Origin: Myxococcota bacterium
GTDB taxonomy: Bacteria; Myxococcota_A; UBA9042; PHBI01; JACKFB01
Length of the DNA stretch: 64,000 nucleotides
Assembly (NCBI GenBank): GCA_051747385.1
Contig: JBNJGB010000024.1
Span: 25,797-89,796 of the forward strand
Reading direction: 5' to 3'
The notes beneath the pieces were generated by a model. That model did no database searches and was not told where the DNA came from. It saw only the letters and a program-made list of their open reading frames with translations. The translations under genes and the position numbers were made by a program. Every line of letters begins with the position of its first letter. Positions within the stretch are counted from its first letter, which is position 1. Below are positions 24,040-29,758 of this stretch, one piece after another.

Positions 24040-25218
24040 ATGCGCGAAGTCGTCATCGTCAGCGGTGCCCGGACTCCCATCGGCAGCTTCAACGGCGCGT
24101 TCGCGTCGGTCCCGTCCCCCAGGCTCGGGGCGGTGGCCATCCGAGCGGCCCTCGACCGGGCGGGCGTGGACCCGGCGACGGTCGACGAGGTCCTCATGGG
24201 CTGCGTGCTGCAGGCGGGCATCGGCCAGGCTCCCGCGCGGCAGGCCTCCATCTACGCCGACGTGCCGACCTCGGTCGGCGCGAGTACGGTCCACAAGGTG
24301 TGCGGCTCCGGCCTCAAGACGGTCATCATGGCGAGCCAGATGATCCGCTGCGGCGACGCGGACATCGTCGTGGCCGGCGGCATGGAGAACATGACCATGG
24401 CGCCGTATCTGCTGCCGAAGGGCCGCAACGGCTATCGCATGGGTCACGGCAAGGTCCTGGACGCCATGGTCCTCGACGGCCTGTGGGACGTCTACAACGA
24501 CTACCACATGGGCTCCGCCGCGGAGCTGTGCGCCCGCGAGTGCAACGTGCCCCGCGAGGCGCAGGACGACTTCGCCAAGGAGAGCTACCGGCGCGCGAAG
24601 GAGTCCGTCGAGAAGGGCTACTTCGACAGGGAGGTCGCCCCGGTGGAGGTCCCCCAGCGCAAGGGAGACCCCCTGGTCGTGGACAAGGACGAGGAGCCGG
24701 GCCGCGGCAAGCCGGAGAAGTTCCCCAAGCTGCGCGCCGCCTTCGAGAAGGAGGGCACGGTGACGGCGGCCAACGCGTCCAGCATCAACGACGGCGCCTC
24801 GGCGTGCGTCGTGATGAGCGCGGACAAGGCCAGGGAGCTGGGCCTCACGCCCATGGCCCGCATCCTGTCCGCGGGGGCGCACGCCCAGGACCCGGAGTGG
24901 TTCACCACCGCGCCCACCGGCGCCGTGAAGGACGCGGTCGGCAAGGCCGGCCTGGAGCTGGGCGACATCGACCTCTTCGAGATCAACGAGGCGTTCTCCG
25001 TGGTGGCCCTGGCGGTGGGCGATCAGCTCGGCATCGACATGGACAAGGTCAACGTCCGCGGCGGCGCCGTCGCCCTGGGGCACCCCATCGGGGCGTCGGG
25101 CAACCGCATCCTCGTGACGCTGCTGCACGCCCTGCAGGACCAGGGCGGCCGCTACGGCTGCGCCGGCATCTGCCTGGGCGGGGGCGAGGCCATCTCGGTG
25201 GTCGTCGAGCGCGTCTGA
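24040..25218 (+). CDS. Acetyl-CoA C-acetyltransferase (thiolase II)
   Basis: VCGSGLKTV active-site Cys, [18 protein letters not shown]-terminal [12 protein letters not shown]. Confidence 0.9.
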
Positions 25219-25276
25219 GTCAGCCGACAAACCCGCCGGGGCGGGGCGACCGCCCCGGCCGCGAAGGGAGCAGACC

Positions 25277-26125
25277 ATGGCCATTCACAGCGTGGGCGTC
25301 GTGGGCGCAGGGCAGATGGGCGCCGGGATCGCCCAGGTGGCGGCGGTGTCCCACATGGACGTCACCGTGCGGGACGTGTCCGAGGGGCAGCTCGAGCGGG
25401 CGAAGGCGGGCATCGACAAGAGCCTGTCCAAGCTCGTGAACAAGGAGCGCCTGTCCGAGGAGGACAAGCAGGGCGCCCTGGAGCGCCTGACCTTCACGAC
25501 GGACATCTCGGCGCTCGAGGAGTGCGACCTGGTCGTCGAGGCGGCCACCGAGGACGAGGAGCTGAAGCGCGCCATCTTCGCGGAGCTGGACGAGGTCGTG
25601 AAGGACGACGCCATCCTGGCGAGCAACACGTCGTCCATCAGCATCACGCGTCTCGCCGCCGTGACGTCGCGGCCCCAGCGCTTCATCGGCATGCACTTCA
25701 TGAACCCCGTGCCGATCATGAAGCTCGTCGAGGTCATCCGCGGCCTGGAGACCAGCGACGAGACCTTCGAGGTGACCCGCATCCTGGCCGAGCGCATGGG
25801 CAAGACGGTGGTGGAGGCGCGGGACTTCTCGGGCTTCATCGTCAACCGCATCCTGGTCCCCATGCTCAACGAGGCGGTCTTCGCGCTGCACGAGGGCGTG
25901 GCCTCGGCCGAGGACATCGACAAGGCCATGAAGCTGGGCACGAACCAGCCCATGGGCCCGCTGACCCTCGCCGACTTCATCGGCCTGGACACCGTGCTGG
26001 CCATCGCCGAGGTGCTCCACGAGGGCCTCGGCGACCCCAAGTACCGGCCGTGCCCGCTGCTGCGGCAGTACGTCGACGCCGGCCGCCTCGGCCGCAAGGT
26101 CGGCCGCGGCTTCTTCACCTACTAG
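25277..26125 (+). CDS. hbd: 3-hydroxybutyryl-CoA dehydrogenase
   Basis: [19 protein letters not shown]-binding motif and the 3HCDH N- and C-terminal domains. Confidence 0.9.
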
Positions 26126-26150
26126 CGCACCGGACCGAGGAGACCCCCAC

Positions 26151-26933
26151 ATGCCGTACGATCACCTGCTGTACGAGCGCGAGGACTCGGTCGTCCAGCT
26201 CACCATCAACCGGCCCGAGGTGCGGAACGCCCTGAACCGGAAGACCCTGGTGGAGCTGAGGCGCGCCTTCTTCGACTTCCGGCACGACCAGGACGCCCGC
26301 GTGCTCATCATCACGGGGGCGGGCAGCAAGGCGTTCGTCGCCGGCGCCGACATCGCCGAGATGTCCGACATGACCCAGGAGCAGGCGGAGGAGTTCGCCA
26401 AGCTCGGTCAGGCGCTCACCATGGAGATCGAGGGCGTGCCGAAGGCCGTCATCGCCGCGGTGAACGGCTTCGCCCTCGGCGGCGGCTGCGAGCTGGCGAT
26501 GGCCTGTGACTTCATCCTCGCCAGCGACAACGCCCACTTCGGCCAGCCGGAGGTGAACCTGGGGCTCATCCCGGGCTTCGGCGGCACCCAGCGGCTGGCC
26601 CGCATCGTGGGCCGCGCGAGGGCCAAGCAGCTCATCTTCACCGGCGAGATCATCGACGGCGCCCGGGCGCGGGAGCTGGGGCTGGCCAACGCCGTGTACA
26701 CGCAGGACGAGCTCCTGAAGCACGCCCACGACATCGCCCGGACCATCGCCTCGAAGGGCCCGCTGGCGGTGGGCGCCGCCAAGCGGTCGCTCAACCGCGG
26801 CTACGACCTGAGCCTCGAGGTCGGCCTCGAGTTCGAGTCGATGCTCTTCGGGACGATGTTCAAGACCGAGGACATGCGGGAGGGCACCAGCGCCTTCCTC
26901 GAGAAGCGAAAGCCCGCCTTCAAGGGCGAGTAG
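26151..26933 (+). CDS. crt: Enoyl-CoA hydratase (crotonase)
   Basis: LIITGAGSKAFVAGADI and AAVNGFALGGGCELAMACD motifs. Confidence 0.9.
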   Translation: MPYDHLLYEREDSVVQLTINRPEVRNALNRKTLVELRRAFFDFRHDQDARVLIITGAGSKAFVAGADIAEMSDMTQEQAEEFAKLGQALTMEIEGVPKAVIAAVNGFALGGGCELAMACDFILASDNAHFGQPEVNLGLIPGFGGTQRLARIVGRARAKQLIFTGEIIDGARARELGLANAVYTQDELLKHAHDIARTIASKGPLAVGAAKRSLNRGYDLSLEVGLEFESMLFGTMFKTEDMREGTSAFLEKRKPAFKGE

Positions 26934-28167: not shown

Positions 28168-28171
28168 GCCC

Positions 28172-29314
28172 ATGGACCTGGAGCTGACCGGCGAGCAGGC
28201 GCAGATCCGCGACCTGGCCCGGGACTTCGCGCGCCGGGAGCTGGCGCCGAAGGCCGCCGAGCTGGATCGCACCGGCCGTTTCCCGACGGAGTCCTTCCGG
28301 GCGCTGGGGGAGCTGGGCCTGCTGGGCGTCAACGTGCCCGCGGCATACGGGGGCGCGGAGGCCGGGGTGCTCTCCCTGACCATGGCGCTGAACGAGGTGG
28401 CCTACGCCTGCGCGTCGACGGCGGTGGGCATGAGCGTCACCAACATGGTCGCCGAGACCATCGCCCGCTTCGGCTCCGAGGGCCTGGCCGGGAGGTACGT
28501 CCCCCGGCTCACCTCCGGCGAGGCGGTGGCCGGGGCGTTCTGCCTGTCCGAGCCCGGCGCGGGCACGGACGCGGCCGGGCTGCAGGCGACCGCGCGCAGG
28601 GAGGGCGACCACTACGTGCTCAACGGCACGAAGATGTGGATCACCTCAGGGGATCACGCGGGCGTGTTCATCGTCATGGCGCGCACGGGGGCTCCGGACA
28701 GCCGCCACGAGGGCATCAGCGCCTTCGTGGTGGAGCCGTCCTTCGAGGGCTTGTCCACCGGCAAGCCGGAGGAGAAGTGCGGGCTCAAGGGCTCGTCCAC
28801 GGTCCCCGTCATCCTGGAGGACTGCGTCGTCCCGGCGGACAACCTCCTCGCCGACGAGGGGATGGGCTTCACCATCGCCATGGCGGCTCTGGACGGCGGC
28901 CGCATCACCATCGGCGCCATGGCCAACGGCATCGCGCGGGCCGCCCTCGACGCCGCCTCGACCTACGCCCTGGAGCGGAAGCAGTTCGGCAAGCCCATCG
29001 GGACCTTCCAGGCCATCCAGCACAAGCTGGCCGACATGGCCGTGGGGATCGAGGCCTCGGAGCTCCTCGTCCGGCGGGCGGCGTGGCTCAAGGAGCGCGG
29101 CGAGCGCCGCTTCACCCGCGAGGCCGCCATGGCGAAGGTCCACGCGACGGAGAACGCCAAGCGGGTGACGGACGAAGCCATTCAAATCCACGGCGGCTAC
29201 GGGTATACGCGGGAGTATCCCGTGGAGAGGTACATGCGGGATGCGCGCGTGACCACGATCTTCGAGGGCACCACGGAGATCCAGAAGGTGGTCATCGCCA
29301 GGGAGATCCTCTGA
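28172..29314 (+). CDS. Acyl-CoA dehydrogenase, second paralogue
   Basis: Same ACAD architecture; FEGTTEIQKVVIAREIL. It is 4 nt downstream of the first ACAD. Confidence 0.9.
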   Translation: MDLELTGEQAQIRDLARDFARRELAPKAAELDRTGRFPTESFRALGELGLLGVNVPAAYGGAEAGVLSLTMALNEVAYACASTAVGMSVTNMVAETIARFGSEGLAGRYVPRLTSGEAVAGAFCLSEPGAGTDAAGLQATARREGDHYVLNGTKMWITSGDHAGVFIVMARTGAPDSRHEGISAFVVEPSFEGLSTGKPEEKCGLKGSSTVPVILEDCVVPADNLLADEGMGFTIAMAALDGGRITIGAMANGIARAALDAASTYALERKQFGKPIGTFQAIQHKLADMAVGIEASELLVRRAAWLKERGERRFTREAAMAKVHATENAKRVTDEAIQIHGGYGYTREYPVERYMRDARVTTIFEGTTEIQKVVIAREIL

Positions 29315-29326
29315 AGTGGAGAGACC

Positions 29327-29758
29327 ATGACCGACCAGCGCTATCGCATCCTCATCGGCAAGCCGGGCCTGGACGGGCACGACCGGGGCGCGAAGGTGGT
29401 GGCGCGGGCCCTCCGCGACGCCGGGTTCGAGGTGATCTACACGGGGCTGCACCAGACCCCGGAGATGATCGTCAACGCGGCCATCCAGGAGGACGTGGAC
29501 CTGGTGGGCGTGTCCATCCTGTCGGGCGCACACAATCACCTGGTGCCCGAGGTGATCGATCAGCTGAAGGCCCGGGGCGCCGGCGACATCGCCGTCTTCG
29601 TCGGGGGCATCATCCCCGAGGAGGACGTGAGGACGCTCCGGGACAAGGGCGTCGCCCGCGTGTTCACTCCAGGGACGCCCATGAGCGAGATCGTCTCCGC
29701 CATCCGGGAGATCCTGGAGGAGCGCGAGGCGGGCGATCCGCTTCCGTCTGCGGGTTGA
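29327..29758 (+). CDS. Cobalamin-binding small subunit of an acyl-CoA mutase (isobutyryl-CoA/methylmalonyl-CoA mutase B12-binding domain), 143 aa
   Basis: DxHxxG B12-binding motif GLDGHDRGAKVV and SILSGAHNHLVPEV. It is a stand-alone Rossmann-like B12 domain. Confidence 0.8.
   Translation: MTDQRYRILIGKPGLDGHDRGAKVVARALRDAGFEVIYTGLHQTPEMIVNAAIQEDVDLVGVSILSGAHNHLVPEVIDQLKARGAGDIAVFVGGIIPEEDVRTLRDKGVARVFTPGTPMSEIVSAIREILEEREAGDPLPSAG

What the first reader, a model, noticed from the sequence alone, without database searches (positions are those of the whole stretch)
24040..29758. Butyryl/isobutyryl-CoA operon ending in a stand-alone B12-binding mutase subunit; the mutase large subunit is absent and meaB is displaced
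The operon reads thiolase, hbd, crt, acyl-CoA dehydrogenase, acyl-CoA dehydrogenase, then a 143-aa B12-binding domain with the DxHxxG motif. The next gene is an ECF sigma factor, so no large (TIM-barrel) mutase subunit follows. The MeaB G-protein chaperone is encoded 5 kb away on the opposite strand (35015..35998). This suggests an isobutyryl-CoA/butyryl-CoA (or related) mutase split across loci. In Myxococcota that would be relevant to branched-chain fatty-acid starter-unit supply.
Basis: partly seen in the sequence, partly recalled or inferred. Interest (0 to 1): 0.5.

Follow-up and report, generated by a model that had tools for sequence, protein, structure and literature searches.

The report
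Acyl-CoA mutase small subunit without partner
A short-chain fatty-acid breakdown operon in an uncultured myxobacterium ends with the small vitamin-B12-binding half of a two-part acyl-CoA mutase, and the large half must be encoded elsewhere; this layout is common and already known from other microbes.

Summary
Genes 24040-29758 (+) encode thiolase, 3-hydroxybutyryl-CoA dehydrogenase, crotonase, a short-chain acyl-CoA dehydrogenase, a second acyl-CoA dehydrogenase, and a 143-aa B12-binding protein with DxHxxG/SxL/GG motifs. An ECF sigma factor follows after 10 bp. MeaB lies at 35015-35998 (-). No mutase TIM-barrel domain occurs anywhere in the 64 kb.

The small protein is a true acyl-CoA mutase small subunit (TIGR00640, 184 bits; 59% identical to PDB 2yxb). 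It is not a methyltransferase or MerR-type B12 domain.

Eight relatives in the same lineage share the operon and also lack a nearby large subunit. The small subunit is as conserved as its neighbours. In more distant genomes the same operon carries a large subunit directly before the small one. That large subunit has the Phe/Gln signature of isobutyryl-CoA mutase rather than the Tyr/Arg of methylmalonyl-CoA mutase.

Among the closest species representatives with full flanks, 23 of 37 small-subunit genes have no large subunit within about 10 kb. Unlinked subunits are also documented in archaea and, by recollection, in Streptomyces.

The best reading is an ICM-like split mutase feeding isobutyryl-CoA into butyryl-CoA oxidation. 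I could not locate the partner large subunit. Ordinary; low interest.

The parts
24040..25218 (+). Acetyl-CoA acetyltransferase (thiolase), 392 aa. First gene of the cluster.
   Evidence: Thiolase_N 315 bits and Thiolase_C 151 bits. TIGR01930 scores 440 bits against a cut-off of 241.
25277..26125 (+). 3-hydroxybutyryl-CoA dehydrogenase, 282 aa.
   Evidence: 3HCDH_N and 3HCDH. NF004474 scores 443 bits against a cut-off of 408.
26151..26933 (+). Short-chain enoyl-CoA hydratase (crotonase), 260 aa.
   Evidence: ECH_1 at 255 bits. The best NCBIfam model is the short-chain enoyl-CoA hydratase NF004475, at 316 bits, which is below its cut-off of 394.
27010..28167 (+). Short-chain (butyryl-CoA type) acyl-CoA dehydrogenase, 385 aa.
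   Evidence: All three ACAD domains are present. The best solved relatives are rat and human SCAD (1jqi, 477 bits, E=5e-142) and bacterial butyryl-CoA dehydrogenases.
28172..29314 (+). Second acyl-CoA dehydrogenase, 380 aa. Substrate not assignable.
   Evidence: ACAD domains. It scores 349 bits to SCAD and similar values to many short- and medium-chain ACADs. It starts 4 bp after the preceding gene.
29327..29758 (+). Stand-alone B12-binding small subunit of a split acyl-CoA mutase, 143 aa. DxHxxG at residues 16-21, SxL at 63-65, GG at 93-94.
   Evidence: TIGR00640 scores 183.6 bits against a cut-off of 57.45. PDB matches are 2yxb at E=5e-48 and HcmB 4r3u_C at E=7e-42. Identity is 58.6% to 2yxb and 53.1% to HcmB. 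The sequence is identical to NCBI MGM0577324.1.
29769..30308 (+). ECF-type sigma factor, 179 aa, starting 10 bp after the small subunit. Probably co-transcribed. Its role in the system is unknown.
   Evidence: Sigma70_r2, Sigma70_r4_2 and TIGR02937. The same position is conserved in L007, L009 and L172.
30353..31075 (+). 240-aa multi-pass membrane protein of no known family. It could be the cognate anti-sigma factor; this rests on position only.
   Evidence: No Pfam hit at E<=0.05. Homologues at 39-45% identity follow the small subunit or sigma gene in L003, L007 and L009. 241-245-aa genes of no known family occupy the same position in L171 and L172.
35015..35998 (-). MeaB G-protein chaperone, 327 aa, 5.3 kb downstream on the opposite strand.
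   Evidence: PF03308 at 318 bits; TIGR00750 at 343 bits against a cut-off of 241. Exact match to MGM0577329.1. The position is conserved in L003, L007, L009, L171 and L172.
32308..35028 (-). 906-aa GT-C-type (GT87/PMT_2-like) membrane protein whose start overlaps the MeaB stop by 14 bp. Context only, not part of the mutase.
   Evidence: GT87 at 25 bits and PMT_2 at 24 bits. A homologue follows MeaB in L003 and L009.

Best explanation
The 143-aa protein is the cobalamin-binding small subunit of a two-gene (split) adenosylcobalamin-dependent acyl-CoA mutase. It binds AdoCbl base-off/His-on through His18 of the DxHxxG motif. It must dock onto a separately encoded large subunit of about 550-590 aa (a TIM barrel that binds the substrate), and MeaB gates cofactor loading.

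The large subunit is not in the operon or in the 64 kb window, so it must be encoded elsewhere in the genome (inferred, not shown). The partner is most likely an isobutyryl-CoA mutase-like enzyme with Phe/Gln at the two specificity positions (inferred from homologous operons).

The operon would then convert isobutyryl-CoA, for example from valine or isobutyrate, into n-butyryl-CoA. It would oxidise that through the SCAD-like dehydrogenase, crotonase, 3-hydroxybutyryl-CoA dehydrogenase and thiolase to two acetyl-CoA. The reverse direction cannot be excluded.
For: Shown:
- Family membership of the small subunit: TIGR00640 at 184 bits, 2yxb at E=5e-48, all three motifs present.
- MeaB is an equivalog-level match.
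- The other five genes form a complete short-chain beta-oxidation set, and ACAD1 is closest to SCAD/butyryl-CoA dehydrogenase.
- The operon lacking a large subunit recurs in lineage relatives: five genes plus the small subunit in L001, L003, L009, L171 and L172; hbd missing in L174; hbd and both ACADs missing in L007. None of them has a TIM-barrel gene within about 10 kb.
- Between lineage members the small subunit shows dN of 0.16-0.21 and dN/dS of 0.24-0.32. Both are equal to or lower than those of its five neighbours, so it is under purifying selection.
- Homologous operons in other lineages place a large subunit directly upstream of the small one: L013 (thl-hbd-crt-acd-acd-LARGE-small-...-acd-meaB), L061, L057, L067 (with ETF genes) and L125.
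- Those large subunits have Phe and Gln where MCM has Tyr89 and Arg207, and Ala where HcmA has Asp117.
- In 80 species-representative loci, 10 of 23 Phe/Gln-type mutases have an ACAD nearby, against 0 of 6 Tyr/Arg (MCM-type) ones.
- The window's MeaB is 50-56% identical to most MeaBs that sit next to Phe/Gln mutases, and 39-49% identical to those next to Tyr/Arg mutases.
- Orphan small-subunit genes are common: 23 of 37 loci with full flanks.

Precedent: M. sedula and A. copahuensis list mcmA and mcmB as separate proteins with far-apart accession numbers (PMC5461723, Table 3). Unlinked S. cinnamonensis icmA and icmB is my recollection of Ratnatilleke et al. 1999, which is cited in PMC7238569.
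Against: - No large subunit of this genome or of any lineage relative was found, so the key partner is hypothetical.
- The small-subunit sequence cannot assign specificity. The NJ tree is unresolved outside the lineage (83% bootstrap for the lineage, at most 36% beyond it), and a log-odds classifier did not separate the partner types.
- The small subunit is about equally similar to partners of Phe/Gln mutases (66-70%) and of Tyr/Arg mutases (65-66%).
- Some Phe/Gln large subunits in the homologous operons have His in place of a conserved Asp (AFH versus AFD), so their substrate may not be isobutyryl-CoA.
- MeaB is translationally coupled to unrelated envelope genes and could serve a different mutase.
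Confidence: 0.62

Rival explanations
1. It is the small subunit of a split methylmalonyl-CoA mutase, like archaeal McmB. It would convert methylmalonyl-CoA from odd-chain or branched-chain acyl-CoA oxidation into succinyl-CoA, with the catalytic subunit encoded next to epimerase or carboxylase genes elsewhere.
For: The best solved relative is the Aeropyrum pernix small subunit 2yxb (E=5e-48), which comes from an archaeon whose split mutase is taken to be MCM. Databases name relatives 'methylmalonyl-CoA mutase C-terminal domain'. Identity to Tyr/Arg-partnered small subunits is 65-66%, barely below that to Phe/Gln-partnered ones. Unlinked mcmA and mcmB are documented (PMC5461723).
Against: In the 80 species-representative loci, Tyr/Arg-type split mutases never sit with ACAD or beta-oxidation genes (0 of 6). 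All large subunits inside homologous thl-hbd-crt-acd operons are Phe/Gln type. Residues His42 and Ile64 of the small subunit match the majority of Phe/Gln partners (17 of 24 each) rather than Tyr/Arg partners (Arg at position 42 in 7 of 8). The operon makes C4 intermediates, not propionyl-CoA.
Confidence: 0.2
2. It partners a large subunit of another or unknown specificity, such as 2-hydroxyisobutyryl/3-hydroxybutyryl-CoA mutase (HCM/RCM), pivalyl-CoA mutase, or an uncharacterised type. The enzyme would link a branched or hydroxylated C4/C5 acyl-CoA to the 3-hydroxybutyryl-CoA or butyryl-CoA steps of the operon.
For: HcmB is the second-best solved relative (E=7e-42). The L013-type large subunit scores higher to HcmA (577 bits) than to MCM (520 bits). 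The operon encodes 3-hydroxybutyryl-CoA dehydrogenase, the enzyme that would take the HCM product. Several operon-linked large subunits carry an unusual AFH motif in place of AFD.
Against: Operon-linked large subunits have Phe and Ala where HcmA has Ile90 and Asp117, so they lack the HCM signature seen in the solved enzyme. No 2-hydroxyisobutyrate-CoA ligase gene is present in the window.
Confidence: 0.12
3. It is an orphan. The lineage lost the large subunit, and the small B12-binding protein persists either as a decaying remnant or with a new role, such as a cobalamin-binding or cobalamin-sensing partner of the adjacent ECF sigma factor and membrane protein.
For: No large subunit was found in the window or near the gene in the lineage relatives examined. 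The sigma gene starts 10 bp downstream, and this adjacency recurs in L007, L009 and L172.
Against: The protein is under purifying selection at least as strong as its metabolic neighbours, so it is not decaying. It keeps 66-73% identity to small subunits of other phyla that sit next to large subunits or in actinobacterial genomes. MeaB, which is specific to these mutases, is kept nearby in most of the lineage. The sigma gene is absent in L001, L003 and L171, although the small subunit is retained there. Unlinked subunits are the commoner layout generally.
Confidence: 0.05

Closest known systems
Isobutyryl-CoA mutase IcmA/IcmB of Streptomyces cinnamonensis (Ratnatilleke et al. 1999, cited in PMC7238569)
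   Same: It is a two-polypeptide AdoCbl mutase with a B12-binding subunit of about 136-143 aa encoded apart from the large subunit. A Streptomyces orphan small subunit (L058) is 66.7% identical to the window protein. Large subunits in the homologous operons carry the Phe/Gln signature.
   Different: Here the small-subunit gene is embedded in a thiolase-hbd-crt-ACAD-ACAD operon and followed by an ECF sigma factor. The partner and the enzyme activity are unverified. That L058 is orthologous to the characterised IcmB was not tested.
Split archaeal methylmalonyl-CoA mutase McmA/McmB (Metallosphaera sedula A4YEG1 and A4YIE3; Aeropyrum pernix small subunit, PDB 2yxb)
   Same: It has a stand-alone small subunit of about 140-155 aa and a catalytic subunit of about 550 aa listed under far-apart accession numbers (PMC5461723, Table 3). 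The window protein is 58.6% identical to 2yxb.
   Different: The archaeal enzyme acts on methylmalonyl-CoA. The gene context here, and the signature residues of the operon-linked large subunits in relatives, point away from MCM.
2-hydroxyisobutyryl-CoA mutase HcmA/HcmB with MeaH (Aquincola tertiaricarbonis, PDB 4r3u)
   Same: It has the same split architecture. The window protein is 53.1% identical to HcmB. The L013-type large subunit is closest overall to HcmA.
   Different: hcmA, hcmB, meaH and the ligase gene hcl form one operon (PMC7176365), whereas here the subunits are unlinked and there is no hcl. Relatives' large subunits lack the Ile90 and Asp117 of HcmA.
IcmF, the fused isobutyryl-CoA mutase (Cupriavidus metallidurans; also reported in a Myxococcaceae genome, PMC10913735)
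   Same: It is the same reaction family and has the same three functional modules: a B12 domain, a G-protein and a TIM barrel.
   Different: In IcmF all three modules are one polypeptide. Here they are at least three separate genes at two or more loci, and the B12 domain matches IcmF only weakly (59 bits).

Membership tests
Acyl-CoA mutase B12-binding small subunit / C-terminal domain (TIGR00640, PF02310) | Scores above the curated cut-off of the family model | tested here: met
   TIGR00640 scores 183.6 bits against a cut-off of 57.45, covering 128 of 132 model positions. PF02310 scores 94.4 bits against 32.1.
Acyl-CoA mutase B12-binding small subunit / C-terminal domain (TIGR00640, PF02310) | Base-off/His-on cobalamin-binding signature DxHxxG ... 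SxL ... GG | tested here: met
   D16-G-H18-D-R-G21, S63-I-L65 and G93-G94.
Acyl-CoA mutase B12-binding small subunit / C-terminal domain (TIGR00640, PF02310) | Closer to mutase B12 domains than to glutamate mutase S or to methyltransferase or MerR-type corrinoid proteins | tested here: met
   Mutase small subunits match at E=5e-48 and 7e-42, MCM C-terminal domains at about 3e-28, GlmS at about 6e-10, and corrinoid proteins at about 5e-6. Methylaspartate mutase S and MtbC models fall far below their cut-offs.
Acyl-CoA mutase B12-binding small subunit / C-terminal domain (TIGR00640, PF02310) | Flavodoxin-like alpha/beta fold | not tested
   No structure was predicted. The fold is implied by 58.6% identity over 128 residues to the solved chain 2yxb_A.
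Acyl-CoA mutase B12-binding small subunit / C-terminal domain (TIGR00640, PF02310) | A cognate large (PF01642, TIM-barrel) subunit encoded in the same genome | not testable with these tools
   It is absent from the 64 kb window and from about 10 kb either side in the lineage relatives. The rest of the assembly could not be read. Searches seeded with distant large subunits returned only other clades.
Isobutyryl-CoA mutase (ICM) specifically | Large subunit with Phe and Gln at the positions of MutB Tyr89 and Arg207 | tested here: inconclusive
   This is met by the large subunits inside homologous operons of other lineages (L013, L057, L061, L067). The window organism's own large subunit is unknown. 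That Phe/Gln marks ICM is from my knowledge of Jost et al. 2015, which PMC7238569 cites for the two determinant sites.
Isobutyryl-CoA mutase (ICM) specifically | Butyryl-CoA/isobutyryl-CoA isomerase activity | not testable with these tools
   This needs an enzyme assay.
MeaB/ArgK G-protein chaperone (TIGR00750) | Equivalog model score above the cut-off, with a P-loop | tested here: met
   TIGR00750 scores 342.7 bits against 240.75. The P-loop GNPGSGKST is present. The protein is 37% identical to E. coli ArgK.
MeaB/ArgK G-protein chaperone (TIGR00750) | Gene adjacent to its client mutase | tested here: not met
   It lies 5.3 kb from the small subunit on the opposite strand and overlaps envelope-type genes on both sides. 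The position is nevertheless conserved in the lineage.

The most novel reading that the evidence does not exclude
The lineage has truly lost the mutase large subunit. The conserved small B12-binding protein, co-transcribed with an ECF sigma factor and an uncharacterised six-pass-like membrane protein, would then act as a cobalamin-binding (or light/B12-sensing) accessory of that sigma/anti-sigma pair, or as a B12 carrier working with MeaB. It would be a mutase subunit re-used for regulation.
Probability: 0.04. Interest if true: 0.6.

Novelty: new member of a known kind. Interest (0 to 1): 0.15.

Why it matters
The practical value is for annotation. Stand-alone 'cobalamin B12-binding domain' genes inside short-chain beta-oxidation operons of Myxococcota and neighbouring phyla are best read as the small half of a Phe/Gln-type (ICM-like) split mutase. 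That implies a B12-dependent route joining valine or isobutyrate carbon to butyryl-CoA oxidation.

It also shows that the 'methylmalonyl-CoA mutase' names on these genes are probably wrong for this context. No open question is resolved, and the gene layout is common and has precedents.

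Tried and rejected
1. Finding the source contig by exact protein look-up. The MAG is not on record. Only its NCBI accessions MGM0577323, MGM0577324 and MGM0577329 were recovered.

2. Finding the lineage's large subunit.
- Homologue searches seeded with the L013 large subunit returned only that query's own clade, Deferrimicrobiaceae-like sequences at 77-100% identity.
- The search seeded with the Anaeromyxobacter L025 large subunit returned only Anaeromyxobacter-like sequences at 82-100%.

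3. Scanning metagenome contigs for closer relatives that keep the large subunit.

4. Placing the small subunit by phylogeny. An NJ tree with 200 bootstraps resolves only the immediate lineage. A per-column log-odds classifier gave positive scores to both classes in leave-one-out tests and is not usable.

5. Cobalamin riboswitch or other RNA elements. There are none in the window; only two tRNAs were found.

6. Promoter and terminator scans. Nothing exceeded the shuffled expectation.

7. Primary papers on specificity residues and on icmA/icmB (PMC2804213, PMC4646380, PMC4551191, PMC3346121, PMC94078). None is held in the library, so those points rest on secondary citations and on my own knowledge.

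8. Absolute dN/dS values. dS is compressed by the extreme GC3 bias, so only the comparison between genes is used.

Full report
**What is in the sequence**

The window is high-GC (about 72%) chromosomal DNA. It carries housekeeping genes, including ribosomal protein S1, recA, carA and lepB. Three of its proteins are identical to NCBI records MGM0577323, MGM0577324 and MGM0577329, all labelled 'MAG... [Myxococcota bacterium]' and all on a 100,280-bp contig.

Eight + strand genes run from 24040 to 31075 with gaps of 4-76 bp:
- thiolase
- 3-hydroxybutyryl-CoA dehydrogenase
- crotonase
- two acyl-CoA dehydrogenases
- a 143-aa B12-binding protein
- an ECF sigma factor
- a 240-aa membrane protein with no family match

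The first dehydrogenase is closest to mammalian short-chain acyl-CoA dehydrogenase and bacterial butyryl-CoA dehydrogenases (477 bits to 1jqi). The second cannot be assigned a substrate.

MeaB lies at 35015-35998 on the opposite strand.

**Identity of the B12 protein**

It scores 183.6 bits on TIGR00640, the acyl-CoA mutase C-terminal domain model, against a cut-off of 57. Glutamate mutase S and corrinoid methyltransferase models score far below their cut-offs.

Its best solved relatives:

| Relative | E-value | Identity |
|---|---|---|
| Aeropyrum pernix mutase small subunit, 2yxb | 5e-48 | 58.6% |
| HcmB, 4r3u | 7e-42 | 53.1% |
| C-terminal domains of fused MCMs | about 3e-28 | not computed |
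| IcmF | 6e-15 | not computed |
| Glutamate mutase S | about 6e-10 | not computed |

It carries DxHxxG (residues 16-21), SxL (63-65) and GG (93-94).

**Absence of a large subunit**

tblastn with E. coli Sbm found only the B12 domain in the window. The Sbm TIM-barrel part and two split-type large subunits gave no hit at E<=1e-3 in the window.

The same holds for about 10 kb either side of the gene in the lineage relatives whose small subunits are 72-81% identical over the full protein (L001, L003, L007, L009, L171, L172, L174). L174 is a 5.4-kb contig, so only that much could be checked there. Most of these relatives share the wider synteny: S1, the operon, sigma or the membrane protein, the GT-C membrane protein and MeaB. 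The layout without a large subunit is therefore ancestral to this clade and not an assembly artefact.

**Is the small subunit still functional?**

Between lineage members its dN (0.16-0.21) and dN/dS (0.24-0.32) are equal to or lower than those of the five neighbouring catabolic genes. dS is compressed by the GC3 bias, so only the comparison between genes is meaningful. A decaying orphan is unlikely.

**Comparative anatomy**

A scan of one genome per species returned 80 loci, which I mapped with tblastn. Several distant genomes have the same operon with a large subunit directly upstream of the small one:
- L013 has thl-hbd-crt-acd-acd-LARGE-small, then thiolase-like and OB-fold genes, then acd-meaB.
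- L061, L057 and L125 have shorter versions.
- L067 adds ETF alpha and beta subunits and an Fe-S oxidoreductase.

I aligned these large subunits to E. coli Sbm and to the solved enzymes.
- The operon-linked large subunits have Phe and Gln where MCM has Tyr89 and Arg207.
- They have Ala where HcmA has Asp117.
- In the PDB alignments HcmA itself shows Ile, Asp and Gln at these positions, and MCM shows Tyr, Ala and Arg.

From my knowledge of the family (Ratnatilleke 1999; Cracan 2010; Jost 2015, the last cited in PMC7238569 for the two determinant sites), Phe/Gln is the isobutyryl-CoA mutase signature.

Across the 80 loci, 10 of 23 Phe/Gln mutases have an ACAD nearby, against 0 of 6 Tyr/Arg ones. 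By association, the missing partner here is most likely Phe/Gln type.

A subset of the operon-linked large subunits has AFH in place of the otherwise conserved AFD motif. I cannot interpret this difference.

**Limits of the small-subunit sequence**

Only the immediate lineage is supported (83% bootstrap). The next grouping, with orphan small subunits of Myxococcales and Bradymonadaceae MAGs, has 36% support, and deeper nodes have none. Identity to Phe/Gln-partnered, Tyr/Arg-partnered and actinobacterial orphan small subunits is 65-73% in every case. Two columns, His42 and Ile64, lean towards Phe/Gln partners.

**How unusual is the layout?**

It is not unusual. Of 37 species-representative loci with at least 8 kb on both sides, 23 have no large subunit in the flank. 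These include many Actinomycetota, Geobacterales and Myxococcota-labelled MAGs and a Streptomyces.

Separately listed catalytic and B12-binding subunits are documented for Metallosphaera and Acidianus MCM (PMC5461723, Table 3). By my recollection they are also documented for S. cinnamonensis IcmA and IcmB.

Within Myxococcota both layouts exist. Anaeromyxobacter and MAG_657 keep the subunits linked (L025, L015). A Myxococcaceae strain is reported to have the fused IcmF (PMC10913735).

**What I could not do**

I could not find the large subunit of this organism or of its close relatives. The MAG's contigs are not in the look-up index. Large subunits differ by 35-45% between clades. The central inference, a partner encoded elsewhere, therefore remains an inference.

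**Mechanism proposed**

- The small subunit binds AdoCbl through His18 (supported by family membership and motifs).
- It docks on an unlinked Phe/Gln-type large subunit (inferred).
- MeaB assists cofactor loading (inferred from the family).
- The enzyme interconverts isobutyryl-CoA and butyryl-CoA (inferred by association).
- The five co-operonic enzymes take butyryl-CoA to acetyl-CoA (supported by family assignments).

The direction is inferred from the SCAD-type dehydrogenase.

**Verdict**

This is a correctly observed but ordinary feature. It is a new member of a known kind: a split acyl-CoA mutase with unlinked subunits. The comparative result is modest. The operon's large-subunit slot is empty in this myxobacterial clade, while the small subunit and MeaB are retained. 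Interest is about 0.15.

Noticed in passing
window 32308-38627 (- strand); also L003 12342-18197, L171 12039-17556, L009 14448-18579: MeaB is translationally coupled to unrelated envelope-type genes. Its start overlaps the stop of a weakly sulfatase-like protein that appears, from its N-terminal sequence, to be exported (ORF 35976-38627). Its stop overlaps the start of a 906-aa GT-C (GT87/PMT_2-like) membrane protein. The MeaB plus GT-C pairing is conserved across the lineage, which is odd company for a mutase chaperone.
   Followed up: partly
window 29769-31075 (+); L007 10443-11760, L009 10448-11769, L172 11564-12901: An ECF sigma factor and a 240-aa multi-pass membrane protein of no known family follow the small subunit with gaps of 10 and 44 bp. 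The pair recurs in four lineage members including the window. In L003 and L171 the sigma gene is missing but the membrane protein remains. It may be a sigma/anti-sigma pair whose signal is unknown.
   Followed up: partly
L013 8246-9922, L015, L059, L060, L061, L078, L081, L087 (large subunits): A subset of Phe/Gln-type split-mutase large subunits has His in place of the Asp that is conserved in MCM, HcmA and the other Phe/Gln sequences (AFH versus AFD, at MutB 116-118). They may form a subfamily of different or unknown substrate specificity.
   Followed up: no
L001 10441-11508, L172 10439-11527, L011 10428-11564, L018 10469-11557: In several relatives a third ACAD-like gene with no hit to the ACAD middle domain (about 355-362 aa in L001 and L172) follows the small subunit directly. 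It is absent from the window, where the sigma gene takes that position.
   Followed up: no
L007 7999-10426 and L008: One lineage member has a reduced operon (thiolase-crotonase-small subunit) without hbd or either ACAD, yet it keeps the small subunit, sigma, the membrane protein and MeaB.
   Followed up: no
window 1-4832 (- strand): NrfD-like membrane subunit, a roughly 1000-aa 4Fe-4S protein and a multihaem cytochrome c7/c3-like protein. Together they look like an alternative complex III or polysulfide-reductase-like respiratory module.
   Followed up: no
window 31493-32305 (- strand): A cysteine-rich Asp/Gly-rich protein that looks, from its sequence, like a secreted lipoprotein. It has no Pfam match and lies between the membrane protein and the GT-C gene.
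   Followed up: no
window 22941-23936 (- strand): A divergently oriented 331-aa enoyl-CoA hydratase/isomerase-family protein (ECH_1 118 bits, ECH_2 57 bits) sits immediately upstream of the thiolase gene. It could belong to the same short-chain or branched-chain acyl-CoA metabolism.
   Followed up: no
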